Positions 10,817 to 37,239 of a stretch of 64,000 nucleotides of DNA are shown in pieces. This DNA comes from Sminthopsis crassicaudata. Lineage: Eukaryota. Each line of letters opens with the position of its first letter. Within the stretch, counting starts at the first letter, position 1. The notes below the pieces were generated by a model. It was not told where the DNA came from and did no database searches. It saw only the letters and a program-made list of their open reading frames with translations. The DNA is taken from NCBI RefSeq assembly GCF_048593235.1, contig NC_133622.1, forward strand, positions 233,275,198-233,339,197, written 5' to 3'. The translations under genes were made by a program, and so were the position numbers.

Positions 10817-11377
10817 AAAATCTATCATTATTTATATTGCCAAAGGACAAGGGGAAGTAAGCAGAAAAAAGATTTACAATTAACTATTTTAAAATATGAA
10901 AGTGAAAATCTACACTTAAAAGTAAGAAAAGGAAGAAAAACATATAAAGAATAGAGAAAGTGCTCAGACATCACTTTAAATTCTCAGTTAATCAGTAATA
11001 AGTTATTAAATATTTACCTTGAATGATAGGCTTTTGGATCTAGGTCTACTATTCCTGCCATCCCAAGGAAAACAATATTCATGCTTCTTTTGTATATGCT
11101 CAGGATATCCAGGGAAGACTCAGTGATGGTCCATAGATCCCCTAATATCCTTCATCCCAGAGAGGTCAACAGCTGCTTGACTCACTCTCCTGGGTCCTGA
11201 GACTTCATTCAAGGGTGTAGAAGCCTTGATCTTTTCAATCATCCCCCAATGTTACTCATGATTCCAAGCAAGATAGTGCTATGTGAAGCACAGGGGATAG
11301 CAAGAAAGATGAAAACAACTCTTTGTTCCCCTGAAAAATCCCATTTAATAAGTAAGACCATATGTATATAAGTACAC

Positions 11378-11412
<35 letters not shown>

Positions 11413-11881
11413 CAGGGTATATGCAAAAATCTCTATGCAAATTCTTGCCTTCCCAATGGCAAGAGGGGAAGTAGGCAGAGAGAAAATGTAGAAGTCAAGA
11501 TTTTAAAACATGAAAGTTAAAATGTTCCTGTCTAACTAAGAAAAGATCAAAAAACCTATTAATGGTTCTCTAATTTCACTAGGATTGATTTCATCTTACA
11601 ACAAAGAATGGCTTCCTCTTGATATCATGATGAGTTTTTCCTCAGTGTAGAGCCTCCTGGTGGCTGACCTGGCCTCCTGCTCCCCCCATCCCCCACTGAG
11701 ACCCAGGCCAGTCTGAAAGGCTCTCAGCAAAGCTAAGTGGGCCCCAGGCAAGGAAACTAGACTTGGAAGGAAATCAAAAAGGATTTGCACTTGAACTTCT
11801 GGCTATTCTTGTGGTGATTCCCCAACTGAAAGGAAGGTGGCTCCAAGACCTCCAGAAAACCATCCAAGAACTTGAGAGTTT

Positions 11882-11899
11882 GGGCGCCCAAAGTGGGGC
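11882..11899 (+). promoter_or_regulatory. Retroviral primer-binding site, tRNA-Lys(CUU) type
   Basis: GGGCGCCCAAAGTGGGGC matches 16/18 of TGGCGCCCAACGTGGGGC. Repeated at 16256, 20602, 24962, 29318, 33342, 37706, 42060, 46416, 50780 and 55126. Confidence 0.85.
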
Positions 11900-11931
11900 T
11901 AAGCACCTACATGTGTGACCCAGAAATTAAG

Positions 11932-13066
11932 GTGAGTACACAAACAGGCAAGAAGGAAACTCGGACAAGGGCTAACGTTGTATTTCAGCTGAAATGGGAC
12001 AAGGGTTTAGAAAGGAGCCTTTTCCACCTCAAGGAAAAGGTCTAGAAAGCATGGTGACACTGAAAAATGTTCAAGGTTTTCTGGTAATGGGGTCCAGGTC
12101 AGTGAAGTCTTTGAAATATTAAAAGACACATCTCCTTGGTTCTCTAAGCACAAAGAATTCCATCCAGACCAAGGGAAAGGAGTAGGAGAGCAACTAAGTG
12201 AATATTACAATGAGAATGGTGCTCATTCAATTCCTAAAGAAGCATTTTATACCTACACCTGAATCCAATTGGTCTGAGGAAATGATGTCTGCTCAAGAAG
12301 AAGGAAAAAGAAGAAAGAGCAGGAGGGGAAGGATACTGACAAACTAGGTGAAGAGCCTGAAGAATCAGGTAAGAATGGAGTGAAGTACAATTCTGATGAA
12401 ATTAAGGAGAGTGGTGCTTCCCAGCAGGAGACATTAGGACATTCCCCAACCCCTGACCTACCCCCCACCCCCAGGAACCTATTATGGGTGGAGGGAGAAG
12501 GAGGAGGAGGAGGGGCAGGGACAGAATCAGCATCTCCTGTGAAGCAGTCTGTGACAAGATGGCAAAAGGCAAAAAGGGGGACAGGATATATCTGCTGGAA
12601 TAGAAGAATACCCTGTGAGTGAAGACTTTGATCCTTCAGATCAAGCAGGAGAAGATACACTCCTTTGGATGTGGGGAAAAAAAATCAAGGATTTGAAAAA
12701 GGGCTGTACTCTTTATGGGGCTTCTCATCTTAGGCGAAAATGGTGTTAGAGAATTTGGCTTTTGAAATGGTAACCCCTGGTGATGGCAAATGTATAGCAA
12801 GGGCATGTTGAGAACCTGGAAACAACTTGTTGTGGCTTTTGGGCTATAGTGCACTTTGTAGGATACAAGCCAGGGAGGTCTGACCTGACCAAAGAAAGCA
12901 GGAGATGTTATGGGGCAGAAGTGAAATTGAACCAGGGAAGTGAATGATGGTGTCCTTGCCAGGTACTTAGTACATAATAGAGATTCCCCCCTAAGGCTAC
13001 TGATGGGATTAGCATAGAGTATATCAACTGGGACAATCACAGCCAGACATTCATTCTCTCTCTCAG
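11932..13066 (+). other. Predicted 5'-UTR intron of the ENY2-like gene (removes gag remnant)
   Basis: Consensus donor AAG|GTGAGT just after the PBS; acceptor ttctctctctcAG at 13066 (alternative AG at 13074), ~70 nt upstream of the ATG. Prediction only. Confidence 0.6.
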
Positions 13067-13133
13067 CTTTGTAGTGACTGGAGGCTGGAGGAAAAGAACT
13101 TCACCTCAGAGATTCATTGCATCTCCTAGCATC

Positions 13134-14537
13134 ATGGAGGACTGGAAGAGGCTCAGAGAAGACAGAGCACTGGAGAATGGAGCACAAGCTCTGGGACTGA
13201 GACAGACTTCAAGAAAGAGACCCTGGAGGTCATCCTCCTCCTTGCTACCTCGAAAGCAAGACCCATTACAGAGGCCCTCCACAAAGGGGGGCCGGGCCCA
13301 GGCCCAGAACTGGAAGAGACTCGGCGAAGACAGAGGACTGGAGGCTGGAGAAGAAGCTCTGGGACTTGGACGGATTTCAAGAAAGAGACCCTGTAGGTCC
13401 TCCTCCTCCTTCCTCCACAGAAAGCAAGACCCATGCCAGAGGATCTCCAGAAAGCAGACCCAGGCCCACAACTGGAAGAGACTCGGGGAAGACAGAGGAC
13501 TGGAGGCTGGAGAAGAAGCTCTGGGACTGAGACATTCTTCAAGAAAGAGACTGTGGAGGTCATCCTCCTACTTCCTCCACAGCAACCAAGACCCATTGCA
13601 GAGGCCCTCAACAAAGGGGGCCCAGGCCCAGGCCCAGGCCCAGGCCCAGGCCCAGCATTGGAAGAGACTCGGCGAAGACAGAGGACTGGAGGCTGAAGCA
13701 CAAACTCTCGGACAGAGACAGGTTTCAAGAAAGAGACCCTGGAGGTCCTCCCCATCCTTCCTCCACAGAAAGCAAGATCCATGCCAGAGGATCTCCAGAA
13801 AGCAGACCCAGGCCCACAACTGGAAGAGACTCGGGGAAGACAGAGGACTGGAGGCCGGAGAAGAAGCTCTGGGACTGAGACATTCTTCAAGAAAGAGACT
13901 GTGGAGGTCATCCTCCTACTTCCTCCACAGCAACCAAGACCCATTGCAGAGGCCCTCCACAAAGGGGGCCCGGGCCCAGGCCCAGCACTGGAAGAGACTC
14001 GGGGAAGACAGAGGACTGGAGGCTGAAGCACAAACTCTCGGACAGAGACAGGTTTCAAGAAAGAGACCCTGGAGGTCCTCCTCATCCTTCCTCTACAGAA
14101 AGCAAGACCCTTGCCACAGGATCTCCAGAAATTGGCCCCGGACCCCAGGCAAGGAAACACACTGTGAAGGAGACACTAGACTTTTGGGGACTCCATCACC
14201 TGCCAATTCTCCTGGGGATTGCTCTGATGAAACCAAGAATACCCAAATGAACACAGAGCCACCCATCAAAGCAATTCTTCACCAGAAACTGATAGAAACT
14301 GGTGAACGACAACGACTTCAACAGTGGCTAAGAGCTCAATTGCTCCAGTGTGGTTGGAAAGATCAACTACAAGCTCATTGTCAAGATGTGATTCAGCAAA
14401 AAGGCCTAGAACAGGTGACTGTGGACAACTTGGTAGCAGAACTCACTCTCAAAGGCAGAGAGCTTGTACCCCACAGTTTGATGGAGGAACTTTTCCAAAG
14501 AGTAAAGACCTTCTTGGCTCAGCACGACAGACCTTAA
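13134..14537 (+). CDS. ENY2: ENY2-like chimeric retrogene, copy 1 (467 aa): six Arg/Ser-rich repeats plus C-terminal ENY2/Sus1 domain (14247..14537)
   Basis: The C-terminal 96 aa ([41 protein letters not shown]...EL.QR..TFLAQH) align without gaps to recalled human ENY2, ~60/96 identical, with no introns. The first ATG (ATCATGG, good Kozak) is at 13134; the track start at 13074 is GTG. This is a paralog, not the parental ENY2. Confidence 0.9.
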
Positions 14538-14736
14538 GAGGGGGCCGAACATCAACACCATGTACTTTGACTTCTTGCATCCACAAAGAACAGACATGCC
14601 ATACCTTTGCAGGGCACTTGCTAAATTAGTCCTCTTTGGGTAGGATGCATTTTCCGTGTTTTCGTAGGATACTCTGTTGGATCCATTTTTTTCTCCAAGG
14701 TCATTTTTACAAGAAATCAATAAGAAAATATTTTAA

Positions 14737-14742
14737 AATAAA
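14737..14742 (+). terminator. Candidate polyadenylation signal AATAAA (repeated in each unit)
   Basis: First AATAAA ~200 nt after the stop, at the start of an AT-rich tract that contains several more. Confidence 0.4.
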
Positions 14743-15106
14743 AACAAAAATAACATAAAAATAAGAAACTATTTAATAAATTTTAAAATCATAGAATAAC
14801 TAATCATAAAAATCATAATATAAAATCATAACATAAAACATTTAAAATCAAAAGTAAATTTAAAAATTGAATAATCAGAAATACAATAAAAATCATAAAT
14901 AATAAAACTTTTAAAGTTTTCAAAATTACCTATTTCCACTCTCATAGTCTATGTTCTCTATTTTCAACTTTGAGCATTGACTATAAATGTTACCATCTTT
15001 CCCAAGAAAGATGGCCCATTACTCTTGTAACTGTCAGAAACACTGTCCCTTTGTCTCTTGTCCCCTCCCCCCTCAATACTAGCATTTAATAAGAGGATAT
15101 GTAAAT

Positions 15107-15167
<61 letters not shown>

Positions 15168-15740
15168 CCCAGGGAATAGGCCAAAATGTCTATCCAAATT
15201 CTTGCCTTCTTAAAGGGAGAAGGGCATTTAGGCAGAGAGAAAATTTAGAACTCAATATTATAAAAAACGAAAGTGAAAAGGTTCAGATAAAAGGAATTAA
15301 AGGAAGAAAAATATGTACAAAATAGAGAAAGTCCTCAGACATCACTCTAAATTCTCAATTAATCAGTAATAAGTTATTACATATTTACATTGAATGATAG
15401 GCTTTTGGATCTAGGTCTACTTTTCCTGCCATCCCAAGGATAGCAATATTCATGCTTCTTTTGTATATGCTCAGGATATCCAGGGGAGACTCAGTGATGG
15501 CCCATAGATCCCCTAATATCCTTCATCCCAGAGAGGTCAACAGCTGCTTGACTCACTCTCCTGGGTCCTGAGATTTCATTCAAGGGTGTAGAAGCCTTGA
15601 TCTTTTCAATCATCCCCCAATGTTACTCATGATTCCAAGCAAGATAGTGCTATGTGAAGCACAGGGAATAGCAAGAAAGATGAAAACAACTCTTTGTTCC
15701 CCTGAAAAATCCCATTTAATAAGTAAGACCATATGTATAT

Positions 15741-15789
<49 letters not shown>

Positions 15790-16019
15790 GTATATGCAAA
15801 AATCTCTATGCAAATTCTTGCCTTCCCAATGGCAAGAGGGGAAGTAGGCAGAGAGAAAATGTAGAAGTCAAGATTTTAAAACATGAAAGTTAAAATGTTC
15901 CTGTCTAACTAAGAAAAGACCAAAAAAACCTATTAATGGTTCTCTAATTTCACTAGGATTGATTTCATCTTACAACAAAGAATGGCTTCCTCTTGATATC
16001 ATGATGAGTTTTTCCTCAG

Positions 16020-17442
16020 TGTAGAGCCTCCTGGTGGCTGACCTGGCCTCCTGCTCCCCCCATCCCCCACTGAGACCCAGGCCAGTCTGAAAGGCTCTCA
16101 GCAAAGCTAAGTGGGCCCCAGGCAAGGAAACTAGACTTGGAAGGAAATCAAAAAGGATTTGCACTTGAACTTCTGGCTATTCTTGTGGTGATTCCCCAAC
16201 TGAAAGGAAGGTGGCTCCAAGACCTCCAGAAAACCATCCAAGAACTTGAGAGTTTGGGCGCCCAAAGTGGGGCTAAGCACCTACATGTGTGACCCAGAAA
16301 TTAAGGTGAGTACACAAACAGGCAAGAAGGAAACTCGGACAAGGGCTAACGTTGTATTTCAGCTGAAATGGGACAGGGGTTTAGAAAGGAGCCTTTTCCA
16401 CCTCAAGGAAAAGGTCTAGAAAGCATGGTGACACTGAAAAATGTTCAAGGTTTTCTGGTAATGGGGTCCAGGTCAGTGAAGTCTTTGAAATATTAAAAGA
16501 CACATCTCCTTGGTTCTCTAAGCACAAAGAATTCCATCCAGACCAAGGGAAAGGAGTAGGAGAGCAACTAAGTGAATATTACAATGAGAATGGTGCTCAT
16601 TCAATTCCTAAAGAAGCATTTTATACCTACACCTGAATCCAATTGGTCTGAGGAAATGATGTCTGCTCAAGAAGAAGGAAAAAGAAGAAAGAGCAGGAGG
16701 GGAAGGATACTGACAAACTAGGTGAAGAGCCTGAAGAATCAGGTAAGAATGGAGTGAAGTACAATTCTGATGAAATTAAGGAGAGTGGTGCTTCCCAGCA
16801 GGAGACATTAGGACATTCCCCAACCCCCCTGACCTACCCCCCACCCCCAGGAACCTATTATGGGTGGAGGGAGAAGGAGGAGGAGGAGGGGCAGGGACAG
16901 AATCAGCATCTCCTGTGAAGCAGTCTGTGACAAGATGGCAAAAGGCAAAAAGGGGGACAGGATATATCTGCTGGAATAGAAGAATACCCTGTGAGTGAAG
17001 ACTTTGATCCTTCAGATCAAGCAGGAGAAGATACACTCCTTTGGATGTGGGGAAAAAAAATCAAGGATTTGAAAAAGGGCTGTACTCTTTATGGGGCTTC
17101 TCATCTTAGGCGAAAATGGTGTTAGAGAATTTGGCTTTTGAAATGGTAACCCCTGGTGATGGCAAATGTATAGCAAGGGCATGTTGAGAACCTGGAAACA
17201 ACTTGTTGTGGCTTTTGGGCTATAGTGCACTTTGTAGGATACAAGCCAGGGAGGTCTGACCTGACCAAAGAAAGCAGGAGATGTTATGGGGCAGAAGTGA
17301 AATTGAACCAGGGAAGTGAATGATGGTGTCCTTGCCAGGTACTTAGTACATAATAGAGATTCCCCCCTAAGGCTACTGATGGGATTAGCATAGAGTATAT
17401 CAACTGGGACAATCACAGCCAGACATTCATTCTCTCTCTCAG
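16020..17442 (+). mobile_element. ERVK-like 5' remnant, unit 2
   Basis: Near-identical to unit 1; PBS at 16256. Confidence 0.85.
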
Positions 17443-17509
17443 CTTTGTAGTGACTGGAGGCTGGAGGAAAAGAACTTCACCTCAGAGATTCATTGCATCT
17501 TCTAGCATC

Positions 17510-18907
17510 ATGGAGGACTGGAAGAGGCTCAGAGAAGACAGAGCACTGGAGAATGGAGCACAAGCTCTGGGACTGAGACAGACTTCAAGAAAGAGACCCT
17601 GGAGGTCATCCTCCTCCTTGCTACCTCGAAAGCAAGACCCATTACAGAGGCCCTCCACAAAGGGGGGCCGGGCCCAGGCCCAGAACTGGAAGAGACTCGG
17701 GCAAGACAGAGGACTGGAGGCTGGAGAAGAAGCTCTGGGACTTGGACGGATTTCAAGAAAGAGACCCTGTAGGTCCTCCTCCTCCTTCCTCCACAGAAAG
17801 CAAGACCCATGCCAGAGGATCTCCAGAAAGCAGACCCAGGCCCACAACTGGAAGAGACTCGGGGAAGACAGAGGACTGGAGGCTGGAGAAGAAGCTCTGG
17901 GACTGAGACATTCTTCAAGAAAGAGACTGTGGAGGTCATCCTCCTACTTCCTCCACAGCAACCAAGACCCATTGCAGAGGCCCTCAACAAAGGGGGCCCA
18001 GGCCCAGGCCCAGGCCCAGGCCCAGCATTGGAAGAGACTCGGGGAAGACAGAGGACTGGAGGCTGAAGCACAAACTCTCGGACAGAGACAGGTTTCAAGA
18101 AAGAGACCCTGGAGGTCCTCCCCATCCTTCCTCCACAGAAAGCAAGATCCATGCCAGAGGATCTCCAGAAAGCAGACCCAGGCCCACAACTGGAAGAGAC
18201 TCGGGGAAGACAGAGGACTGGAGGCCGGAGAAGAAGCTCTGGGACTGAGACATTCTTCAAGAAAGAGACTGTGGAGGTCATCCTCCTACTTCCTCCACAG
18301 CAACCAAGACCCATTGCAGAGGCCCTCCACAAAGGGGGCCCGGGCCCAGGCCCAGCACTGGAAGAGACTCGGGGAAGACAGAGGACTGGAGGCTGAAGCA
18401 CAAACTCTCGGACAGAGACAGGTTTCAAGAAAGAGACCCTGGAGGTCCTCCTCATCCTTCCTCTACAGAAAGCAAGACCCTTGCCACAGGATCTCCAGAA
18501 ATTGGCCCCGGACCCCAGGCAAGGAAACACACTGTGAAGGAGACACTAGACTTTTGGGGACTCCATCACCTGCCAATTCTCCTGGGGATTGCTCTGATGA
18601 AACCAAGAATACCCAAATGAACACAGAGCCACCCATCAAAGCAATTCTTCACCAGAAACTGATAGAAACTGGTGAACGACAACGACTTCAACAGTGGCTA
18701 AGAGCTCAATTGCTCCAGTGTGGTTGGAAAGATCAACTACAAGCTCATTGTCAAGATGTGATTCAGCAAAAAAGCCTAGAACAGGTGACTGTGGACAACT
18801 TGGTAGCAGAACTCACTCTCAAAGGCAGAGAGCTTGTACCCCACAGTTTGATGGAGGAACTTTTCCAAAGAGTAAAGACCTTCTTGGCTCAGCACGACAG
18901 ACCTTAA
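17510..18907 (+). CDS. ENY2: ENY2-like chimeric retrogene, copy 2 (465 aa)
   Basis: Open ORF; private G>S change in the ENY2 domain (QQKSL). Confidence 0.9.
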
Positions 18908-19476
18908 GAGGGGGCCGAACATCAACACCATGTACTTTGACTTCTTGCATCCACAAAGAACAGACATGCCATACCTTTGCAGGGCACTTGCTAAATTAGT
19001 CCTCTTTGGGTAGGATGCATTTTCCGTGTTTTCGTAGGATACTCTGTTGGATCCATTTTTTTCTCCAAGGTCATTTTTACAAGAAATCAATAAGAAAATA
19101 TTTTAAAATAAAAACAAAAATAACATAAAAATAAGAAACTATTTAATAAATTTTAAAATCATAGAATAACTAATCATAAAAATCATAATATAAAATCATA
19201 ACATAAAACATTTAAAATCAAAAGTAAATTTAAAAATTGAATAATCAGAAATACAATAAAAATCATAAATAATAAAACTTTTAAAGTTTTCAAAATTACC
19301 TATTTCCACTCTCATAGTCTATGTTCTCTATTTTCAACTTTGAGCATTGACTATAAATGTTACCATCTTTCCCAAGAAAGATGGCCCATTACTCTTGTAA
19401 CTGTCAGAAACACTGTCCCTTTGTCTCTTGTCCCCTCCCCCCTCAATACTAGCATTTAATAAGAGGATATGTAAAT

Positions 19477-19521
<45 letters not shown>

Positions 19522-20094
19522 CCCAGGGAATAGGCCAAAATGTCTATCCAAATTCTTGCCTTCTTAAAGGGAGAAGGGCATTTAGGCAGAGAGAAAATTT
19601 AGAACTCAATATTATAAAAAACGAAAGTGAAAAGGTTCAGATAAAAGGAATTAAAGGAAGAAAAATATGTACAAAATAGAGAAAGTCCTCAGACATCACT
19701 CTAAATTCTCAATTAATCAGTAATAAGTTATTACATATTTACATTGAATGATAGGCTTTTGGATCTAGGTCTACTTTTCCTGCCATCCCAAGGATAGCAA
19801 TATTCATGCTTCTTTTGTATATGCTCAGGATATCCAGGGAAGACTCAGTGATGGCCCATAGATCCCCTAATATCCTTCATCCCAGAGAGGTCAACAGCTG
19901 CTTGACTCACTCTCCTGGGTCCTGAGATTTCATTCAAGGGTGTAGAAGCCTTGATCTTTTCAATCATCCCCCAATGTTACTCATGATTCCAAGCAAGATA
20001 GTGCTATGTGAAGCACAGGGGATAGCAAGAAAGATGAAAACAACTCTTTGTTCCCCTGAAAAATCCCATTTAATAAGTAAGACCATATGTATAT

Positions 20095-20135
<41 letters not shown>

Positions 20136-20365
20136 GTATATGCAAAAATCTCTATGCAAATTCTTGCCTTCCCAATGGCAAGAGGGGAAGTAGGCAGAGA
20201 GAAAATGTAGAAGTCAAGATTTTAAAACATGAAAGTTAAAATGTTCCTGTCTAACTAAGAAAAGACCAAAAAAACCTATTAATGGTTCTCTAATTTCACT
20301 AGGATTGATTTCATCTTACAACAAAGAATGGCTTCCTCTTGATATCATGATGAGTTTTTCCTCAG

Positions 20366-21788
20366 TGTAGAGCCTCCTGGTGGCTGACCTGGCCTCCTGC
20401 TCCCCCCATCCCCCACTGAGACCCAGGCCAGTCTGAAAGGCTCTCAGCAAAGCTAAGTGGGCCCCAGGCAAGGAAACTAGACTTGGAAGGAAATCAAAAA
20501 GGATTTGCACTTGAACTTCTGGCTATTCTTGTGGTGATTCCCCAACTGAAAGGAAGGTGGCTCCAAGACCTCCAGAAAACCATCCAAGAACTTGAGAGTT
20601 TGGGCGCCCAAAGTGGGGCTAAGCACCTACATGTGTGACCCAGAAATTAAGGTGAGTACACAAACAGGCAAGAAGGAAACTCGGACAAGGGTTAACGTTG
20701 TATTTCAGCTGAAATGGGACAGGGGTTTAGAAAGGAGCCTTTTCCACCTCAAGGAAAAGGTCTAGAAAGCATGGTGACACTGAAAAATGTTCAAGGTTTT
20801 CTGGTAATGGGGTCCAGGTCAGTGAAGTCTTTGAAATATTAAAAGACACATCTCCTTGGTTCTCTAAGCACAAAGAATTCCATCCAGACCAAGGGAAAGG
20901 AGTAGGAGAGCAACTAAGTGAATATTACAATGAGAATGGTGCTCATTCAATTCCTAAAGAAGCATTTTATACCTACACCTGAATCCAATTGGTCTGAGGA
21001 AATGATGTCTGCTCAAGAAGAAGGAAAAAGAAGAAAGAGCAGGAGGGGAAGGATACTGACAAACTAGGTGAAGAGCCTGAAGAATCAGGTAAGAATGGAG
21101 TGAAGTACAATTCTGATGAAATTAAGGAGAGTGGTGCTTCCCAGCAGGAGACATTAGGACATTCCCCAACCCCCCTGACCTACCCCCCACCCCCAGGAAC
21201 CTATTATGGGTGGAGGGAGAAGGAGGAGGAGGAGGGGCAGGGACAGAATCAGCATCTCCTGTGAAGCAGTCTGTGACAAGATGGCAAAAGGCAAAAAGGG
21301 GGACAGGATATATCTGCTGGAATAGAAGAATACCCTGTGAGTGAAGACTTTGATCCTTCAGATCAAGCAGGAGAAGATACACTCCTTTGGATGTGGGGAA
21401 AAAAAATCAAGGATTTGAAAAAGGGCTGTACTCTTTATGGGGCTTCTCATCTTAGGCGAAAATGGTGTTAGAGAATTTGGCTTTTGAAATGGTAACCCCT
21501 GGTGATGGCAAATGTATAGCAAGGGCATGTTGAGAACCTGGAAACAACTTGTTGTGGCTTTTGGGCTATAGTGCACTTTGTAGGATACAAGCCAGGGAGG
21601 TCTGACCTGACCTAAGAAAGCAGGAGATGTTATGGGGCAGAAGTGAAATTGAACCAGGGAAGTGAATGATGGTGTCCTTGCCAGGTACTTAGTACATAAT
21701 AGAGATTCCCCCCTAAGGCTACTGATGGGATTAGCATAGAGTATATCAACTGGGACAATCACAGCCAGACATTCATTCTCTCTCTCAG
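20366..21788 (+). mobile_element. ERVK-like 5' remnant, unit 3
   Basis: Near-identical to unit 1; PBS at 20602. Confidence 0.85.
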
Positions 21789-21855
21789 CTTTGTAGTGAC
21801 TGGAGGCTGGAGGAAAAGAACTTCACCTCAGAGATTCATTGCATCTCCTAGCATC

Positions 21856-23253
21856 ATGGAGGACTGGAAGAGGCTCAGAGAAGACAGAGCACTGGAGAAT
21901 GGAGCACAAGCTCTGGGACTGAGACAGACTTCAAGAAAGAGACCCTGGAGGTCATCCTCCTCCTTGCTATCTCGAAAGCAAGACCCATTACAGAGGCCCT
22001 CCACAAAGGGGGGCCGGGCCCAGGCCCAGAACTGGAAGAGACTCGGGCAAGACAGAGGACTGGAGGCTGGAGAAGAAGCTCTGGGACTTGGACGGATTTC
22101 AAGAAAGAGACCCTGTAGGTCCTCCTCCTCCTTCCTCCACAGAAAGCAAGACCCATGCCAGAGGATCTCCAGAAAGCAGACCCAGGCCCACAACTGGAAG
22201 AGACTCGGGGAAGACAGAGGACTGGAGGCTGGAGAAGAAGCTCTGGGACTGAGACATTCTTCAAGAAAGAGACTGTGGAGGTCATCCTCCTACTTCCTCC
22301 ACAGCAACCAAGACCCATTGCAGAGGCCCTCAACAAAGGGGGCCCAGGCCCAGGCCCAGGCCCAGGCCCAGCATTGGAAGAGACTCGGCGAAGACAGAGG
22401 ACTGGAGGCTGAAGCACAAACTCTCGGACAGAGACAGGTTTCAAGAAAGAGACCCTGGAGGTCCTCCCCATCCTTCCTCCACAGAAAGCAAGATCCATGC
22501 CAGAGGATCTCCAGAAAGCAGACCCAGGCCCACAACTGGAAGAGACTCGGGGAAGACAGAGGACTGGAGGCCGGAGAAGAAGCTCTGGGACTGAGACATT
22601 CTTCAAGAAAGAGACTGTGGAGGTCATCCTCCTACTTCCTCCACAGCAACCAAGACCCATTGCAGAGGCCCTCCACAAAGGGGGCCCGGGCCCAGGCCCA
22701 GCACTGGAAGAGACTCGGGGAAGACAGAGGACTGGAGGCTGAAGCACAAACTCTCGGACAGAGACAGGTTTCAAGAAAGAGACCCTGGAGGTCCTCCTCA
22801 TCCTTCCTCTACAGAAAGCAAGACCCTTGCCACAGGATCTCCAGAAATTGGCCCCGGACCCCAGGCAAGGAAACACACTGTGAAGGAGACACTAGACTTT
22901 TGGGGACTCCATCACCTGCCAATTCTCCTGGGGATTGCTCTGATGAAACCAAGAATACCCAAATGAACACAGAGCCACCCATCAAAGCAATTCTTCACCA
23001 GAAACTGATAGAAACTGGTGAACGACAACGACTTCAACAGTGGCTAAGAGCTCAATTGCTCCAGTGTGGTTGGAAAGATCAACTACAAGCTCATTGTCAA
23101 GATGTGATTCAGCAAAAAGGCCTAGAACAGGTGACTGTGGACAACTTGGTAGCAGAACTCACTCTCAAAGGCAGAGAGCTTGTACCCCACAGTTTGATGG
23201 AGGAACTTTTCCAAAGAGTAAAGACCTTCTTGGCTCAGCACGACAGACCTTAA
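21856..23253 (+). CDS. ENY2: ENY2-like chimeric retrogene, copy 3 (465 aa)
   Basis: Open ORF; private P>S change in repeat 1 (LLSRK). Confidence 0.9.
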
Positions 23254-23822
23254 GAGGGGGCCGAACATCAACACCATGTACTTTGACTTCTTGCATCCAC
23301 AAAGAACAGACATGCCATACCTTTGCAGGGCACTTGCTAAATTAGTCCTCTTTGGGTAGGATGCATTTTCCGTGTTTTCGTAGGATACTCTGTTGGATCC
23401 ATTTTTTTCTCCAAGGTCATTTTTACAAGAAATCAATAAGAAAATATTTTAAAATAAAAACAAAAATAACATAAAAATAAGAAACTATTTAATAAATTTT
23501 AAAATCATAGAATAACTAATCATAAAAATCATAATATAAAATCATAACATAAAACATTTAAAATCAAAAGTAAATTTAAAAATTGAATAATCAGAAATAC
23601 AATAAAAATCATAAATAATAAAACTTTTAAAGTTTTCAAAATTAACTATTTCCACTCTCATAGTCTATGTTCTCTATTTTCAACTTTGAGCATTGACTAT
23701 AAATGTTACCATCTTTCCCAAGAAAGATGGCCCATTACTCTTGTAACTGTCAGAAACACTGTCCCTTTGTCTCTTGTCCCCTCCCCCCTCAATACTAGCA
23801 TTTAATAAGAGGATATGTAAAT

Positions 23823-23873
<51 letters not shown>

Positions 23874-24446
23874 CCCAGGGAATAGGCCAAAATGTCTATC
23901 CAAATTCTTGCCTTCTTAAAGGGAGAAGGGCATTTAGGCAGAGAGAAAATTTAGAACTCAATATTATAAAAAACGAAAGTGAAAAGGTTCAGATAAAAGG
24001 AATTAAAGGAAGAAAAATATGTACAAAATAGAGAAAGTCCTCAGACATCACTCTAAATTCTCAATTAATCAGTAATAAGTTATTACATATTTACATTGAA
24101 TGATAGGCTTTTGGATCTAGGTCTACTTTTCCTGCCATCCCAAGGATAGCAATATTCATGCTTCTTTTGTATATGCTCAGGATATCCAGGGAAGACTCAG
24201 TGATGGCCCATAGATCCCCTAATATCCTTCATCCCAGAGAGGTCAACAGCTGCTTGACTCACTCTCCTGGGTCCTGAGATTTCATTCAAGGGTGTAGAAG
24301 CCTTGATCTTTTCAATCATCCCCCAATGTTACTCATGATTCCAAGCAAGATAGTGCTATGTGAAGCACAGGGGATAGCAAGAAAGATGAAAACAACTCTT
24401 TGTTCCCCTGAAAAATCCCATTTAATAAGTAAGACCATATGTATAT

Positions 24447-24495
<49 letters not shown>

Positions 24496-24725
24496 GTATA
24501 TGCAAAAATCTCTATGCAAATTCTTGCCTTCCCAATGGCAAGAGGGGAAGTAGGCAGAGAGAAAATGTAGAAGTCAAGATTTTAAAACATGAAAGTTAAA
24601 ATGTTCCTGTCTAACTAAGAAAAGACCAAAAAAACCTATTAATGGTTCTCTAATTTCACTAGGATTGATTTCATCTTACAACAAAGAATGGCTTCCTCTT
24701 GATATCATGATGAGTTTTTCCTCAG

Positions 24726-26148
24726 TGTAGAGCCTCCTGGTGGCTGACCTGGCCTCCTGCTCCCCCCATCCCCCACTGAGACCCAGGCCAGTCTGAAAGG
24801 CTCTCAGCAAAGCTAAGTGGGCCCCAGGCAAGGAAACTAGACTTGGAAGGAAATCAAAAAGGATTTGCACTTGAACTTCTGGCTATTCTTGTGGTGATTC
24901 CCCAACTGAAAGGAAGGTGGCTCCAAGACCTCCAGAAAACCATCCAAGAACTTGAGAGTTTGGGCGCCCAAAGTGGGGCTAAGCACCTACATGTGTGACC
25001 CAGAAATTAAGGTGAGTACACAAACAGGCAAGAAGGAAACTCGGACAAGGGTTAACGTTGTATTTCAGCTGAAATGGGACAGGGGTTTAGAAAGGAGCCT
25101 TTTCCACCTCAAGGAAAAGGTCTAGAAAGCATGGTGACACTGAAAAATGTTCAAGGTTTTCTGGTAATGGGGTCCAGGTCAGTGAAGTCTTTGAAATATT
25201 AAAAGACACATCTCCTTGGTTCTCTAAGCACAAAGAATTCCATCCAGACCAAGGGAAAGGAGTAGGAGAGCAACTAAGTGAATATTACAATGAGAATGGT
25301 GCTCATTCAATTCCTAAAGAAGCATTTTATACCTACACCTGAATCCAATTGGTCTGAGGAAATGATGTCTGCTCAAGAAGAAGGAAAAAGAAGAAAGAGC
25401 AGGAGGGGAAGGATACTGACAAACTAGGTGAAGAGCCTGAAGAATCAGGTAAGAATGGAGTGAAGTACAATTCTGATGAAATTAAGGAGAGTGGTGCTTC
25501 CCAGCAGGAGACATTAGGACATTCCCCAACCCCCCTGACCTACCCCCCACCCCCAGGAACCTATTATGGGTGGAGGGAGAAGGAGGAGGAGGAGGGGCAG
25601 GGACAGAATCAGCATCTCCTGTGAAGCAGTCTGTGACAAGATGGCAAAAGGCAAAAAGGGGGACAGGATATATCTGCTGGAATAGAAGAATACCCTGTGA
25701 GTGAAGACTTTGATCCTTCAGATCAAGCAGGAGAAGATACACTCCTTTGGATGTGGGGAAAAAAAATCAAGGATTTGAAAAAGGGCTGTACTCTTTATGG
25801 GGCTTCTCATCTTAGGCGAAAATGGTGTTAGAGAATTTGGCTTTTGAAATGGTAACCCCTGGTGATGGCAAATGTATAGCAAGGGCATGTTGAGAACCTG
25901 GAAACAACTTGTTGTGGCTTTTGGGCTATAGTGCACTTTGTAGGATACAAGCCAGGGAGGTCTGACCTGACCAAAGAAAGCAGGAGATGTTATGGGGCAG
26001 AAGTGAAATTGAACCAGGGAAGTGAATGATGGTGTCCTTGCCAGGTACTTAGTACATAATAGAGATTCCCCCCTAAGGCTACTGATGGGATTAGCATAGA
26101 GTATATCAACTGGGACAATCACAGCCAGACATTCATTCTCTCTCTCAG
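24726..26148 (+). mobile_element. ERVK-like 5' remnant, unit 4
   Basis: Near-identical to unit 1; PBS at 24962. Confidence 0.85.
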
Positions 26149-26215
26149 CTTTGTAGTGACTGGAGGCTGGAGGAAAAGAACTTCACCTCAGAGATTCATT
26201 GCATCTCCTAGCATC

Positions 26216-27613
26216 ATGGAGGACTGGAAGAGGCTCAGAGAAGACAGAGCACTGGAGAATGGAGCACAAGCTCTGGGACTGAGACAGACTTCAAGAAAGA
26301 GACCCTGGAGGTCATCCTCCTCCTTGCTACCTCGAAAGCAAGACCCATTACAGAGGCCCTCCACAAAGGGGGGCCGGGCCCAGGCCCAGAACTGGAAGAG
26401 ACTCGGGCAAGACAGAGGACTGGAGGCTGGAGAAGAAGCTCTGGGACTTGGACGGATTTCAAGAAAGAGACCCTGTAGGTCCTCCTCCTCCTTCCTCCAC
26501 AGAAAGCAAGACCCATGCCAGAGGATCTCCAGAAAGCAGACCCAGGCCCACAACTGGAAGAGACTCGGGGAAGACAGAGGACTGGAGGCTGGAGAAGAAG
26601 CTCTGGGACTGAGACATTCTTCAAGAAAGAGACTGTGGAGGTCATCCTCCTACTTCCTCCACAGCAACCAAGACCCATTGCAGAGGCCCTCAACAAAGGG
26701 GGCCCAGGCCCAGGCCCAGGCCCAGGCCCAGCATTGGAAGAGACTCGGCGAAGACAGAGGACTGGAGGCTGAAGCACAAACTCTCGGACAGAGACAGGTT
26801 TCAAGAAAGAGACCCTGGAGGTCCTCCCCATCCTTCCTCCACAGAAAGCAAGATCCATGCCAGAGGATCTCCAGAAAGCAGACCCAGGCCCACAACTGGA
26901 AGAGACTCGGGGAAGACAGAGGACTGGAGGCCGGAGAAGAAGCTCTGGGACTGAGACATTCTTCAAGAAAGAGACTGTGGAGGTCATCCTCCTACTTCCT
27001 CCACAGCAACCAAGACCCATTGCAGAGGCCCTCCACAAAGGGGGCCCGGGCCCAGGCCCAGCACTGGAAGAGACTCGGGGAAGACAGAGGACTGGAGGCT
27101 GAAGCACAAACTCTCGGACAGAGACAGGTTTCAAGAAAGAGACCCTGGAGGTCCTCCTCATCCTTCCTCTACAGAAAGCAAGACCCTTGCCACAGGATCT
27201 CCAGAAATTGGCCCCGGACCCCAGGCAAGGAAACACACTGTGAAGGAGACACTAGACTTTTGGGGACTCCATCACCTGCCAATTCTCCTGGGGATTGCTC
27301 TGATGAAACCAAGAATACCCAAATGAACACAGAGCCACCCATCAAAGCAATTCTTCACCAGAAACTGATAGAAACTGGTGAACGACAACGACTTCAACAG
27401 TGGCTAAGAGCTCAATTGCTCCAGTGTGGTTGGAAAGATCAACTACAAGCTCATTGTCAAGATGTGATTCAGCAAAAAGGCCTAGAACAGGTGACTGTGG
27501 ACAACTTGGTAGCAGAACTCACTCTCAAAGGCAGAGAGCTTGTACCCCACAGTTTGATGGAGGAACTTTTCCAAAGAGTAAAGACCTTCTTGGCTCAGCA
27601 CGACAGACCTTAA
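26216..27613 (+). CDS. ENY2: ENY2-like chimeric retrogene, copy 4 (465 aa)
   Basis: Open ORF, consensus protein. Confidence 0.9.
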
Positions 27614-28182
27614 GAGGGGGCCGAACATCAACACCATGTACTTTGACTTCTTGCATCCACAAAGAACAGACATGCCATACCTTTGCAGGGCACTTGCTAA
27701 ATTAGTCCTCTTTGGGTAGGATGCATTTTCCGTGTTTTCGTAGGATACTCTGTTGGATCCATTTTTTTCTCCAAGGTCATTTTTACAAGAAATCAATAAG
27801 AAAATATTTTAAAATAAAAACAAAAATAACATAAAAATAAGAAACTATTTAATAAATTTTAAAATCATAGAATAACTAATCATAAAAATCATAATATAAA
27901 ATCATAACATAAAACATTTAAAATCAAAAGTAAATTTAAAAATTGAATAATCAGAAATACAATAAAAATCATAAATAATAAAACTTTTAAAGTTTTCAAA
28001 ATTACCTATTTCCACTCTCATAGTCTATGTTCTCTATTTTCAACTTTGAGCATTGACTATAAATGTTACCATCTTTCCCAAGAAAGATGGCCCATTACTC
28101 TTGTAACTGTCAGAAACACTGTCCCTTTGTCTCTTGTCCCCTCCCCCCTCAATACTAGCATTTAATAAGAGGATATGTAAAT

Positions 28183-28233
<51 letters not shown>

Positions 28234-28806
28234 CCCAGGGAATAGGCCAAAATGTCTATCCAAATTCTTGCCTTCTTAAAGGGAGAAGGGCATTTAGGCA
28301 GAGAGAAAATTTAGAACTCAATATTATAAAAAACGAAAGTGAAAAGGTTCAGATAAAAGGAATTAAAGGAAGAAAAATATGTACAAAATAGAGAAAGTCC
28401 TCAGACATCACTCTAAATTCTCAATTAATCAGTAATAAGTTATTACATATTTACATTGAATGATAGGCTTTTGGATCTAGGTCTACTTTTCCTGCCATCC
28501 CAAGGATAGCAATATTCATGCTTCTTTTGTATATGCTCAGGATATCCAGGGAAGACTCAGTGATGGCCCATAGATCCCCTAATATCCTTCATCCCAGAGA
28601 GGTCAACAGCTGCTTGACTCACTCTCCTGGGTCCTGAGATTTCATTCAAGGGTGTAGAAGCCTTGATCTTTTCAATCATCCCCCAATGTTACTCATGATT
28701 CCAAGCAAGATAGTGCTATGTGAAGCACAGGGGATAGCAAGAAAGATGAAAACAACTCTTTGTTCCCCTGAAAAATCCCATTTAATAAGTAAGACCATAT
28801 GTATAT

Positions 28807-28851
<45 letters not shown>

Positions 28852-29081
28852 GTATATGCAAAAATCTCTATGCAAATTCTTGCCTTCCCAATGGCAAGAG
28901 GGGAAGTAGGCAGAGAGAAAATGTAGAAGTCAAGATTTTAAAACATGAAAGTTAAAATGTTCCTGTCTAACTAAGAAAAGACCAAAAAAACCTATTAATG
29001 GTTCTCTAATTTCACTAGGATTGATTTCATCTTACAACAAAGAATGGCTTCCTCTTGATATCATGATGAGTTTTTCCTCAG

Positions 29082-30504
29082 TGTAGAGCCTCCTGGTGGC
29101 TGACCTGGCCTCCTGCTCCCCCCATCCCCCACTGAGACCCAGGCCAGTCTGAAAGGCTCTCAGCAAAGCTAAGTGGGCCCCAGGCAAGGAAACTAGACTT
29201 GGAAGGAAATCAAAAAGGATTTGCACTTGAACTTCTGGCTATTCTTGTGGTGATTCCCCAACTGAAAGGAAGGTGGCTCCAAGACCTCCAGAAAACCATC
29301 CAAGAACTTGAGAGTTTGGGCGCCCAAAGTGGGGCTAAGCACCTACATGTGTGACCCAGAAATTAAGGTGAGTACACAAACAGGCAAGAAGGAAACTCGG
29401 ACAAGGGTTAACGTTGTATTTCAGCTGAAATGGGACAGGGGTTTAGAAAGGAGCCTTTTCCACCTCAAGGAAAAGGTCTAGAAAGCATGGTGACACTGAA
29501 AAATGTTCAAGGTTTTCTGGTAATGGGGTCCAGGTCAGTGAAGTCTTTGAAATATTAAAAGACACATCTCCTTGGTTCTCTAAGCACAAAGAATTCCATC
29601 CAGACCAAGGGAAAGGAGTAGGAGAGCAACTAAGTGAATATTACAATGAGAATGGTGCTCATTCAATTCCTAAAGAAGCATTTTATACCTACACCTGAAT
29701 CCAATTGGTCTGAGGAAATGATGTCTGCTCAAGAAGAAGGAAAAAGAAGAAAGAGCAGGAGGGGAAGGATACTGACAAACTAGGTGAAGAGCCTGAAGAA
29801 TCAGGTAAGAATGGAGTGAAGTACAATTCTGATGAAATTAAGGAGAGTGGTGCTTCCCAGCAGGAGACATTAGGACATTCCCCAACCCCCCTGACCTACC
29901 CCCCACCCCCAGGAACCTATTATGGGTGGAGGGAGAAGGAGGAGGAGGAGGGGCAGGGACAGAATCAGCATCTCCTGTGAAGCAGTCTGTGACAAGATGG
30001 CAAAAGGCAAAAAGGGGGACAGGATATATCTGCTGGAATAGAAGAATACCCTGTGAGTGAAGACTTTGATCCTTCAGATCAAGCAGGAGAAGATACACTC
30101 CTTTGGATGTGGGGAAAAAAAATCAAGGATTTGAAAAAGGGCTGTACTCTTTATGGGGCTTCTCATCTTAGGCGAAAATGGTGTTAGAGAATTTGGCTTT
30201 TGAAATGGTAACCCCTGGTGATGGCAAATGTATAGCAAGGGCATGTTGAGAACCTGGAAACAACTTGTTGTGGCTTTTGGGCTATAGTGCACTTTGTAGG
30301 ATACAAGCCAGGGAGGTCTGACCTGACCAAAGAAAGCAGGAGATGTTATGGGGCAGAAGTGAAATTGAACCAGGGAAGTGAATGATGGTGTCCTTGCCAG
30401 GTACTTAGTACATAATAGAGATTCCCCCCTAAGGCTACTGATGGGATTAGCATAGAGTATATCAACTGGGACAATCACAGCCAGACATTCATTCTCTCTC
30501 TCAG
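29082..30504 (+). mobile_element. ERVK-like 5' remnant, unit 5
   Basis: Near-identical to unit 1; PBS at 29318. Confidence 0.85.
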
Positions 30505-30571
30505 CTTTGTAGTGACTGGAGGCTGGAGGAAAAGAACTTCACCTCAGAGATTCATTGCATCTCCTAGCATC

Positions 30572-31639
30572 ATGGAGGACTGGAAGAGGCTCAGAGAAGA
30601 CAGAGCACTGGAGAATGGAGCACAAGCTCTGGGACTGAGACAGACTTCAAGAAAGAGACCCTGGAGGTCATCCTCCTCCTTGCTACCTCGAAAGCAAGAC
30701 CCATTACAGAGGCCCTCCACAAAGGGGGGCCGGGCCCAGGCCCAGAACTGGAAGAGACTCGGGCAAGACAGAGGACTGGAGGCTGGAGAAGAAGCTCTGG
30801 GACTTGGACGGATTTCAAGAAAGAGACCCTGTAGGTCCTCCTCCTCCTTCCTCCACAGAAAGCAAGACCCATGCCAGAGGATCTCCAGAAAGCAGACCCA
30901 GGCCCACAACTGGAAGAGACTCGGGGAAGACAGAGGACTGGAGGCTGGAGAAGAAGCTCTGGGACTGAGACATTCTTCAAGAAAGAGACTGTGGAGGTCA
31001 TCCTCCTACTTCCTCCACAGCAACCAAGACCCATTGCAGAGGCCCTCAACAAAGGGGGCCCAGGCCCAGGCCCAGGCCCAGGCCCAGCATTGGAAGAGAC
31101 TCGGCGAAGACAGAGGACTGGAGGCTGAAGCACAAACTCTCGGACAGAGACAGGTTTCAAGAAAGAGACCCTGGAGGTCCTCCTCATCCTTCCTCTACAG
31201 AAAGCAAGACCCTTGCCACAGGATCTCCAGAAATTGGCCCCGGACCCCAGGCAAGGAAACACACTGTGAAGGAGACACTAGACTTTTGGGGACTCCATCA
31301 CCTGCCAATTCTCCTGGGGATTGCTCTGATGAAACCAAGAATACCCAAATGAACACAGAGCCACCCATCAAAGCAATTCTTCACCAGAAACTGATAGAAA
31401 CTGGTGAACGACAACGACTTCAACAGTGGCTAAGAGCTCAATTGCTCCAGTGTGGTTGGAAAGATCAACTACAAGCTCATTGTCAAGATGTGATTCAGCA
31501 AAAAGGCCTAGAACAGGTGACTGTGGACAACTTGGTAGCAGAACTCACTCTCAAAGGCAGAGAGCTTGTACCCCACAGTTTGATGGAGGAACTTTTCCAA
31601 AGAGTAAAGACCTTCTTGGCTCAGCACGACAGACCTTAA
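30572..31639 (+). CDS. ENY2: ENY2-like chimeric retrogene, copy 5 (355 aa, four repeats)
   Basis: Open ORF with an in-frame 330-bp deletion of one repeat dimer; ENY2 domain intact. Confidence 0.9.
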
Positions 31640-32208
31640 GAGGGGGCCGAACATCAACACCATGTACTTTGATTTCTTGCATCCACAAAGAACAGACATG
31701 CCATACCTTTGCAGGGCACTTGCTAAATTAGTCCTCTTTGGGTAGGATGCATTTTCCGTGTTTTCGTAGGATACTCTGTTGGATCCATTTTTTTCTCCAA
31801 GGTCATTTTTACAAGAAATCAATAAGAAAATATTTTAAAATAAAAACAAAAATAACATAAAAATAAGAAACTATTTAATAAATTTTAAAATCATAGAATA
31901 ACTAATCATAAAAATCATAATATAAAATTATAACATAAAACATTTAAAATCAAAAGTAAATTTAAAAATTGAATAATCAGAAATACAATAAAAATCATAA
32001 ATAATAAAACTTTTAAAGTTTTCAAAATTACCTATTTCCACTCTCATAGTCTATGTTCTCTATTTTCAACTTTGAGCATTGACTATAAATGTTACCATCT
32101 TTCCCAAGAAAGATGGCCCATTACTCTTGTAACTGTCAGAAACACTGTCCCTTTGTCTCTTGTCCCCTCCCCCCTCAATACTAGCATTTAATAAGAGGAT
32201 ATGTAAAT

Positions 32209-32255
<47 letters not shown>

Positions 32256-32828: not shown

Positions 32829-32875
<47 letters not shown>

Positions 32876-34528: not shown

Positions 34529-34595
34529 CTTTGTAGTGACTGGAGGCTGGAGGAAAAGAACTTCACCTCAGAGATTCATTGCATCTCCTAGCATC

Positions 34596-36564: not shown

Positions 36565-36617
<53 letters not shown>

Positions 36618-37190: not shown

Positions 37191-37239
<49 letters not shown>

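What the first reader, a model, noticed from the sequence alone, without database searches (positions are those of the whole stretch)
11646..13134. Retroviral splice architecture co-opted: ENY2 fusion sits where env would be
Seen in every unit, in canonical retroviral order: putative LTR, PBS-Lys (11882), perfect donor AAG|GTGAGT (11931/2), gag ATG (11994) with broken MA and CA, pyrimidine-rich acceptor (13066), then the Kozak ATG (13134). Gag is riddled with stops and frameshifts while the splice signals are intact. Established: betaretroviruses express env and accessory genes by splicing from the post-PBS donor. Inference: the ERV LTR is the promoter and the gag remnant is now a 1.1-kb 5'-UTR intron. 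The ENY2 cDNA either inserted into the provirus or was transduced by it.
Basis: partly seen in the sequence, partly recalled or inferred. Interest (0 to 1): 0.82.

Follow-up and report, generated by a model that had tools for sequence, protein, structure and literature searches.

The report
LTR-encoded ENY2 fusion gene array
Ten tandem copies of an intact gene read their first ~370 amino acids from a retroviral long terminal repeat and end in a copy of the host gene ENY2; a retrovirus's own enzymes likely moved that copy, and a neighbouring broken provirus may now supply its first exon.

Summary
The listed motifs are real, but the anatomy is misread. ENY2 does not sit where env was. After gag breaks at ~12871 come the provirus's polypurine tract (12890-12905) and a second LTR (12906-14237); pol and env are deleted. 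The acceptor (13066), the ATG (13134) and 368 codons of Arg/Ser-rich repeats lie in that LTR's R/U5 region, and ENY2 follows it. The acceptor AG is new (0 of 20 family LTRs), as is the donor's AAG (0 of 15).

Three dispersed older copies show the founding element: LTR, then spliced ENY2 cDNA, then an inverted ~27-nt U3 stub, within 6-bp target-site duplications (6/6, 6/6, 4/6). This points to integration by the ERV's integrase with two U3 ends. The parent ENY2 intron holds a matching LTR fragment. The LTR1-gag provirus inserted later, downstream, and was likely brought upstream by tandem duplication.

The ORF is open in all 10 units and two diverged paralogues (ENY2 part dN/dS 0.22). Splicing from LTR1 is plausible (~50%) but unproven: no RNA data were available, and LTR1 has lost its TATA box.

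The parts
10842..55970 (+). Tandem array of ~4.36-kb units: 10 full ORF units and 11 LTR1-gag copies, >99% identical
11558..11879 (+). LTR1, the 5' LTR of a class II ERV: 5' ~100 nt lost, TATA box and R start deleted at 11653/4, AATAAA lost
11882..11899 (+). Primer binding site, tRNA-Lys(CTT) type, 16 of 18 matches
11911..11913 (+). Upstream ATG in weak context, absent from the relatives aligned; would open a uORF ending at 13127 or 13075 if spliced
11929..11937 (+). Post-PBS splice donor AAG|GTGAGT; GT inherited from the family, the -2 A seen only in the array (0 of 15 relatives)
11994..12871 (+). gag remnant (MA and CA N-terminal part), broken by stops and frameshifts; deletion of the rest of the internal region at ~12871
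12872..12905 (+). 3' end of the proviral internal region, with polypurine tract at ~12890-12905
12906..14237 (+). LTR2: TG start at 12906, hybrid U3, decayed TATA at 13020-13026 (TATATCA), expanded R/U5, AATAAA lost at ~14175, cut in U5
13052..13074 (+). Newly gained acceptor in the LTR2 R region: pyrimidine tract with AG at 13065-66 and a second AG at 13073-74
13134..14537 (+). 467-aa ORF: 368 LTR-derived codons (six 162-186-nt repeats, pI 11.1) fused in frame to ENY2
14238..14996 (+). Processed ENY2 cDNA starting at a parental exon boundary, with 3' UTR; AATAAA at 14901, likely cleavage at ~14928
14997..15023 (-). Decayed inverted U3 stub, the right end of the founding LTR-ENY2 element
15024..15930 (+). 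Host flank: two copies of a ~245-bp spacer, the first ending in an empty site for the LTR1 insertion (~15330), the second leading into the next LTR1

Best explanation
Each unit holds an intact fusion ORF whose first 368 codons are LTR R/U5 sequence and whose end is a processed ENY2 copy; it likely began as an ERV-integrated LTR-ENY2 element with two U3 ends, and an independently inserted provirus likely now supplies a first exon spliced across its own gag remnant.

Step 1 (shown): the parent ENY2 has a sense R/U5 LTR fragment ~700 bp upstream of the exon at which all copies begin. Inferred: this fragment was spliced into some ENY2 mRNAs.

Step 2 (inferred): the ERV's nascent plus-strand U3 start annealed to a 9-12-nt match in the ENY2 3' UTR and primed cDNA. 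RT crossed into a viral LTR through the R/U5 fragment, giving DNA with U3 at both ends, and integrase inserted it with a 6-bp duplication. The product is shown at three loci.

Step 3: a separate provirus (LTR1-gag) inserted 245 bp downstream of the chromosome-C6 copy (empty sites shown). A junction between its 3' LTR and the LTR of a neighbouring unit then made the present order (inferred).

Step 4 (shown): R/U5 expanded in frame, the poly(A) signals were lost, and the frame stayed open.

Step 5 (inferred, ~50%): with the LTR2 TATA decayed, transcripts start upstream and use the newly strengthened 11931 donor and the 13066 or 13074 acceptor. They would make a basic, likely nuclear, ENY2 variant, probably in the germ line.
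For: Anatomy: 20 of 20 fetched dispersed matches to 12960-13303 run on into LTR 3' sequence (12 of them shown in alignment). 12872-12920 aligns with the PPT-3' LTR junction of 6 relatives.

Founding element: ends and 6-bp flanks match 6/6 at C3:276.46M, 6/6 at C4:426.23M and 4/6 at C2:242.81M. Random pairs reach 6/6 at 0.0006 and >=4/6 at 0.056. 6 of 8 ordinary solo LTRs of the family match at >=5 of 6 in a 6-bp register. There is no poly(A) at these ends. The 3' junction shares 9 exact (11 of 12) letters between the parent 3' UTR and the inverted U3. The 5' junction falls at a parental exon start, and the intronic LTR fragment shares diagnostic letters with the C3 and C4:426 copies.

Later provirus: empty-site versions of its insertion point exist, and its U3 subtype differs from LTR2's.

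Selection: the ORF is open in 10 of 10 units, in an 89%-identical L1-type retrocopy on C4 (455 aa), and in a C6:173.8M paralogue (237 codons). The ENY2 part, window vs C4, has dN/dS 0.22, p 0.001. Only 4 of 20 family LTRs have any open frame over one ~255-nt stretch.

Past germ-line transcription: the C4:333.7M copy has a poly(A) tail and a 13-bp TSD, and begins upstream of the LTR2 TATA.

Splicing: the acceptor AG is in 0 of 20 family LTRs and 0 of 3 informative paralogues (5 examined); the donor AAG is in 0 of 15. 24 ATGs in the gag remnant would block an unspliced LTR1 transcript.
Against: No transcript was seen. LTR1 lacks the TATA box and R start that 10 of 13 gag-bearing relatives keep. 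A new upstream ATG at 11911 would open a uORF in the spliced form. The C4 retrocopy, from before the acceptor arose, was unspliced there, so the gene worked without this intron. The splice-site gains are post hoc observations on one lineage: the region differs from C4 at 19 of 182 aligned sites anyway. The repeats show no purifying selection among themselves (dN/dS ~0.5-1.5, none significant), and ENY2 against the C6:173.8M paralogue gives 1.1. The parent's intronic LTR fragment has no clean donor at the junction today. The priming mechanism is inferred from end structure only. The site patterns among copies are star-like and do not separate repeated origin from re-mobilisation.
Confidence: 0.6

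Rival explanations
1. (Expression) LTR2 is still the promoter. Transcripts start ~25 nt after its decayed TATA box and reach ATG 13134 unspliced; LTR1-gag is a passenger of the amplified unit.
For: The TATA homologue and R start lie ~100 nt before the ATG, with no ATG between them. LTR1 has lost its TATA box.
Against: The LTR2 TATA reads TATATCA in the window and the C4 copy, against ATATAAG in 15 of 20 family LTRs. The C4 retrocopy starts upstream of that TATA. The model leaves the donor and acceptor gains to chance.
Confidence: 0.3
2. (Expression) The new acceptor is used, but the first exon comes from elsewhere: the host flank, the previous unit, or another donor such as 12369.
For: Other donor-like sites exist at 12369 and 12615. 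The C4 transcript began upstream of the LTR2 TATA.
Against: 11932 is the best consensus match, and it gained its -2 A in the array.
Confidence: 0.12
3. (First reader) ENY2 occupies the env position of one provirus and uses the env splice acceptor.
For: The order LTR-PBS-donor-gag-acceptor-ATG is real.
Against: The PPT and 3' LTR start lie upstream of the acceptor. The acceptor is LTR R sequence, and its AG is absent from 20 of 20 family LTRs. No direct-repeat LTR follows ENY2.
Confidence: 0.02
4. (Origin) The whole LTR1-gag-PPT-LTR2-ENY2-stub was integrated as one transducing provirus, and the dispersed copies are its solo-LTR derivatives.
For: The 6 bp before LTR1 and after the stub match at 4-5 of 6 in paralogues. 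The PBS and leader would supply packaging signals (inference).
Against: LTR1 and LTR2 have different U3 subtypes, and only 33 bp of them align locally. The spacer after the stub runs on into an empty site without LTR1. The flank is purine-rich, so chance matches are easy.
Confidence: 0.1
5. (Origin) Ordinary L1-mediated retrocopies of an LTR-containing ENY2 mRNA.
For: One copy (C4:333.7M) is of this kind: poly(A) tail and 13-bp TSD.
Against: The three founder-type copies start at the U3 TG, which an mRNA lacks. They end in an inverted U3 stub absent from the parent gene, have no poly(A), and carry the family's 6-bp TSD.
Confidence: 0.04

Closest known systems
LTR-mediated retroposition (Tan et al. 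2016, PMC5131818, abstract part and passages read; FAM8A1/HERV-K as cited there)
   Same: Processed host mRNA joined to LTR-element sequence at microsimilarities, no L1 hallmarks, several insertion sites, co-transcription with the LTR.
   Different: There the retrocopy replaces internal ORFs between two direct LTRs. Here it follows one LTR cut in U5 and ends in an inverted U3 stub, so both ends are U3. The 5' junction is a parental exon boundary tied to an intronic LTR fragment. The word 'inverted' occurs 0 times in that paper's main text.
D6Ertd527e and ERVL LTR 5' exons (Franke et al. 2017, PMC5538554, passages read)
   Same: An LTR supplies the start codon, repeat expansion builds coding sequence, and LTRs recycle processed pseudogenes.
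   Different: There the CDS is a CAG expansion outside the LTR, and LTRs carry donors but no acceptor. Here 368 codons are the LTR's own R/U5, and the LTR has gained an acceptor.
ENY2/Sus1 retrocopies (Vorontsova et al. 2025, PMC12611072, passages read)
   Same: Repeated independent ENY2 retroposition in mammals; a testis-specialised paralogue in Drosophila.
   Different: That paper reports highly conserved, weakly expressed copies; 'marsupial' and 'LTR' occur 0 times in it. Here the copy is diverged, N-terminally extended and tandemly amplified.
Marsupial class II ERVs, e.g. env-less MEBrv 3 of Dasyuridae (PMC11334065, passages and section 10 read)
   Same: Abundant betaretrovirus-like family with many solo LTRs and internally deleted proviruses.
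   Different: Membership not tested: no RT sequence is left here and no reference sequence was compared.
Premature or aberrant plus-strand transfer in HIV-1 (PMC12657518, passages read)
   Same: Nascent plus-strand DNA can switch template early.
   Different: The passages describe deletions and tRNA read-through, not capture of a host mRNA or products with two U3 ends.

Membership tests
Class II (betaretrovirus-like) ERV, for LTR1-gag | tRNA-Lys primer binding site | tested here: met
   16 of 18 matches against a genomic tRNA-Lys(CTT) plus CCA
Class II (betaretrovirus-like) ERV, for LTR1-gag | Gag_p10-type matrix domain | tested here: met
   PF02337 E 1.2e-6, 28.7 bits vs cut-off 23.9
Class II (betaretrovirus-like) ERV, for LTR1-gag | Capsid Gag_p24 | tested here: inconclusive
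   E 1.1e-4, 22.6 bits vs cut-off 24, on a 64-aa piece with X at stops
Class II (betaretrovirus-like) ERV, for LTR1-gag | PPT followed by a 3' LTR; 6-bp TSD in the family | tested here: met
   6 of 8 solo LTRs match at >=5 of 6
Class II (betaretrovirus-like) ERV, for LTR1-gag | RT phylogeny | not tested
   pol is deleted here; no complete family member was sought
Retroviral env-position transduction | Cargo upstream of the PPT, behind an env acceptor | tested here: not met
   cargo lies 3' of the PPT and 3' LTR; the acceptor is new
LTR-mediated retrocopy (Tan 2016) | Processed mRNA without L1 hallmarks | tested here: met
   four parental exons joined; no poly(A); 6-bp TSD at 3 loci
LTR-mediated retrocopy (Tan 2016) | Microsimilarity at the switch points | tested here: met
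   3' junction 9 exact, 11 of 12; 5' junction through a shared R/U5 fragment
LTR-mediated retrocopy (Tan 2016) | Retrocopy replaces internal ORFs between two direct LTRs | tested here: not met
   one LTR plus an inverted U3 stub
LTR-mediated retrocopy (Tan 2016) | Further rounds as a non-autonomous element | tested here: inconclusive
   the two ends of the C4:426 copy are different U3 variants, which suggests a second round; star-like site patterns do not decide it
L1-mediated retrocopy, for C4:333.7M only | Poly(A) tail and long TSD at an A-rich site | tested here: met
   13-bp TSD and short poly(A)
ENY2/Sus1 family | PF10163 domain | tested here: met
   E 3e-23; human ENY2 4dhx E 2.7e-38
ENY2/Sus1 family | Binding to SAGA-DUB or TREX-2 partners | not tested
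   no complex prediction was run
LTR-exapted promoter or 5' exon | Transcription start in the LTR, spliced to the gene | not testable with these tools
   no RNA holder listed
LTR-exapted promoter or 5' exon | Intact LTR TATA box | tested here: not met
   deleted in LTR1, decayed in LTR2
MEBrv 3 (Dasyuridae) | RT clade; env-less gag-pro-pol genome | not tested
   no reference sequence in hand

The most novel reading that the evidence does not exclude
A marsupial ERV family repeatedly made integrase-inserted retrocopies with two U3 ends, by priming its own plus-strand stub on a host mRNA pre-adapted with an exonised LTR fragment. One such copy became a selected, amplified germ-line gene whose protein is ~80% translated LTR, and it later evolved a new intron out of a neighbouring provirus's gag.
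Probability: 0.4. Interest if true: 0.85.

Novelty: new variant of a known kind. Interest (0 to 1): 0.7.

Why it matters
It would add a route of gene duplication with its own searchable signature: one LTR, a cDNA, an inverted U3 stub and an integrase-length TSD. Screens that require two direct LTRs or L1 hallmarks would miss it. It would also be a rare case of hundreds of codons built from LTR regulatory sequence and fused to a SAGA/TREX-2 subunit. The paralogues capture successive stages: intronic LTR fragment, dead single copies, open-frame copies, L1 retrocopy, and an array with new splice sites. That makes the birth of an intron and of a promoter switch testable with one RNA experiment.

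Tried and rejected
RNA evidence: no RNA holder listed. The four holder runs X1-X4, from one study, were laid on 11420-13300 only. Their contigs cover the gag remnant evenly and show no 11931>13067/13075 joint. They behave like DNA, so this says nothing about splicing.

Protein relatives: none at 256-818 aa; none among longer fused forms; no usable Atlas hit. One representative, P0001 (E 2e-10, 25% identity), is an unlike protein with a similar ~55-aa period and was rejected as chance. These blanks are weak evidence.

12872-13068 in three frames gave no pol or env family (one weak DUF hit, E 0.25).

The C3 dN/dS row was out of frame and was dropped. The TSD scores were off-register by a loose pattern and were redone; only its random control, PBS and microhomology lines are used. 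L035 and L044 were loose-pattern false pairs, and the L114 pairs are separate insertions.

Insertion of the ENY2 element into the provirus's 3' LTR was rejected, because no LTR remainder follows the stub.

No earlier scan findings were listed.

Literature: 10 searches. Searches returned 0 papers; one search returned one review, not read. Searches gave the papers cited, seen as listings plus the passages named. PMC13641905 has 0 mentions of ENY2. No supplements were opened; those of Tan 2016 and PMC12611072 could list similar or marsupial cases.
Full report
SETTING. The window lies on contig C6 of a 3.24-Gb, 8-contig genome; a marsupial, probably dasyurid, source is my inference. Positions 10842-55970 are a tandem array of ~4.36-kb units, with 11 LTR1-gag copies and 10 ORFs, all open (465 aa in 8, 467 in 1, 355 in 1). 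Units 2-10 differ from unit 1 by 4-8 substitutions before position 15090, plus length changes at simple repeats and in-frame repeat losses. Recurrence in every unit is therefore one observation, not ten.

The PBS, donor, gag ATG, pyrimidine-rich AG and Kozak ATG are at the stated places. The PBS matches a genomic tRNA-Lys(CTT) at 16 of 18. Gag has a Gag_p10 matrix and a sub-threshold Gag_p24 piece, and is broken. 11646-12871 is 74-78% identical to dispersed proviruses; of 13 fetched, several are ~3-kb internally deleted elements. The first 'would refute' test, no ERV similarity, is thus passed.

WHERE THE READING FAILS. The LTR starts at ~11558, not 11646. The family TATA box and R start are deleted at 11653/4, and AATAAA is lost (kept in 10 and 13 of 13 relatives). 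Gag homology stops at ~12871. The next 35 nt match the 3' internal end and PPT of six relatives, and TG at 12906 opens a second LTR, so nothing of pol or env is left. All 20 fetched dispersed matches to 12960-13303 (of 691 candidates, 40 scored) are LTRs: TATA homologue at 13020, R, poly(A) signal, U5. The acceptor and ATG lie in R. The six 162-186-nt coding repeats are an expanded R/U5 segment, and the LTR is cut in U5 at 14237, where ENY2 begins. ENY2 lies behind the 3' LTR, not in the env slot.

THE FOUNDING ELEMENT. Searches with the ENY2 protein and cDNA found the intron-bearing parent (C1:129.81M, four exons matched) and copies at C2:242.81M, C3:276.46M, C4:333.7M, C4:426.23M, C6:173.84M, plus fragments around the array. 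The C2, C3 and C4:426 copies begin at the U3 TG, run through an LTR cut at the same U5 point, continue as spliced ENY2 cDNA, and end in an inverted copy of the first ~27 nt of U3. Their flanks match 4/6, 6/6 and 6/6, against chance rates of 0.056 and 0.0006; 6 bp is the family's TSD length (6 of 8 solo LTRs at >=5/6). The parent 3' UTR shares 9 exact (11 of 12) letters with the inverted U3 at the switch point and then diverges. The 5' junction is the first base of the parental 77-nt exon (exon 2 by analogy with human ENY2, recalled). About 700 bp upstream of that exon, the parent intron holds a sense 160-bp R/U5 fragment that shares a diagnostic variant with the C3 and C4:426 LTRs. I infer that a chimeric ENY2 mRNA carried LTR sequence at its 5' end and a U3-complementary patch at its 3' end. 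The plus-strand U3 stub then primed on it, RT crossed into a viral LTR, and integrase used two U3 ends. One of 17 other exact U3 starts examined (L103) is a similar two-U3 element with ERV internal cargo and a 4/6 flank match, so the route may not be confined to ENY2. Repeated origin from the parent and re-mobilisation are not separated: site patterns are star-like (private changes 16, 31 and 63; 8 parent-only; 5 informative), although the two ends of the C4:426 copy are different U3 variants.

HOW GAG CAME UPSTREAM. At C6:173.84M the order is LTR2-ENY2-stub-245-bp spacer-LTR1. The same spacer also occurs running into non-LTR sequence (window ~15330 and ~10960, and an inverted copy in L027); these are empty sites. 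LTR1 and LTR2 have different U3 subtypes, and LTR2's U3 is a hybrid whose tip shares a variant with the neighbouring LTR1 paralogue L029. The simplest history is a later provirus insertion downstream, then a junction between its 3' LTR and the LTR of a neighbouring unit, then amplification (inference). A single transducing integrant is not excluded, since the flanks match at 4-5 of 6, but it fits the U3 subtypes and empty sites badly.

IS IT A GENE? The C4:333.7M copy has a poly(A) tail and a 13-bp TSD, so the ancestor was transcribed in the germ line and polyadenylated near 14928. It keeps a 455-aa ORF with the same start and stop at 89% DNA identity, and the C6:173.84M copy is open for 237 codons in the same frame. 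Only 4 of 20 family LTRs have any open frame over a single ~255-nt stretch. dN/dS, window vs C4, is 0.22 for ENY2 (p 0.001) and 0.55 for the LTR-derived part (p 0.017, repeat alignment uncertain). Repeats against each other, and ENY2 against the C6:173.84M copy, look neutral. The N-terminal part has pI 11.1 with 54 Arg and 40 Ser in 368 residues. A nuclear, nucleic-acid-binding extension on a SAGA/TREX-2 adaptor is the likely role (inference; the ENY2 roles are from PMC12611072).

IS GAG AN INTRON? Untested. For: the AG at 13065-66 is in 0 of 20 family LTRs and 0 of 3 informative paralogues; the tract lost its one purine; a second AG appeared at 13073-74 (1 of 19 in the family); the donor gained its -2 A (0 of 15); and the LTR2 TATA is decayed. 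13066 ties for the best pyrimidine tract between donor and ATG, and 24 gag ATGs would make an unspliced LTR1 transcript useless. Against: LTR1 has no TATA box, a new ATG at 11911 opens a uORF, the C4 ancestor was unspliced here, and the gains are post hoc. No RNA holder was listed, and the four laid runs behave as DNA. I put LTR1-driven splicing at ~50%, an LTR2 start at ~30%, another upstream exon at ~12%, and silence at the rest.

VERDICT. The stronger finding is a retrocopy class with two U3 ends and a largely LTR-encoded fusion protein. I found no description of either in 10 searches of an incomplete library, with no supplements read. New variant of LTR-mediated retroposition; interest 0.7.

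Noticed in passing
L103:8678-9426 (G000 C1:477.137M): A second kind of two-U3 element: a U3 stub, an ERV internal piece resembling the integrase C-terminus (by eye), and an inverted partial LTR; flanks match 4/6.
   Followed up: partly
L025:7242-9330 (G000 C4:333.706M): An L1-type retrocopy of the fusion gene keeps an intact 455-aa ORF with its own repeat pattern and may be a second active gene.
   Followed up: partly
window 5790-9928 and 56308-64000: Inverted arms flank the array, 97-98% identical in the outer parts and 79% in the inner part; each inner end carries a diverged ENY2 3' UTR fragment.
   Followed up: no
window 10253-10816: A solo LTR of another family (TG...CA, identical 6-bp flanks, read by eye) marks the left edge of the array.
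   Followed up: no
L085:5094-5971 (G000 C4:426.226M): The ENY2 cargo skips from the start of the first matched exon to the last and repeats an exon-junction piece, as from extra RT jumps.
   Followed up: partly
L027:8207-8958, L029, L031: Further partial units of the C6 lineage, at 173.84M and on both sides of the window, broken by L1 insertions and inversions.
   Followed up: partly
window 12655-12722: A contig bearing the unit-11 variants has depth ~4 in run X2, against ~127-143 for array contigs. This is a weak hint of more than 11 copies in that sample; contig depth is not copy number.
   Followed up: no
window 59923-61914: An L1 ORF2-like fragment, open for 664 codons (identity by eye).
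   Followed up: no
L116:1498-1571: A tRNA-Lys-like gene called with a TTA (stop) anticodon, probably a pseudogene.
   Followed up: no
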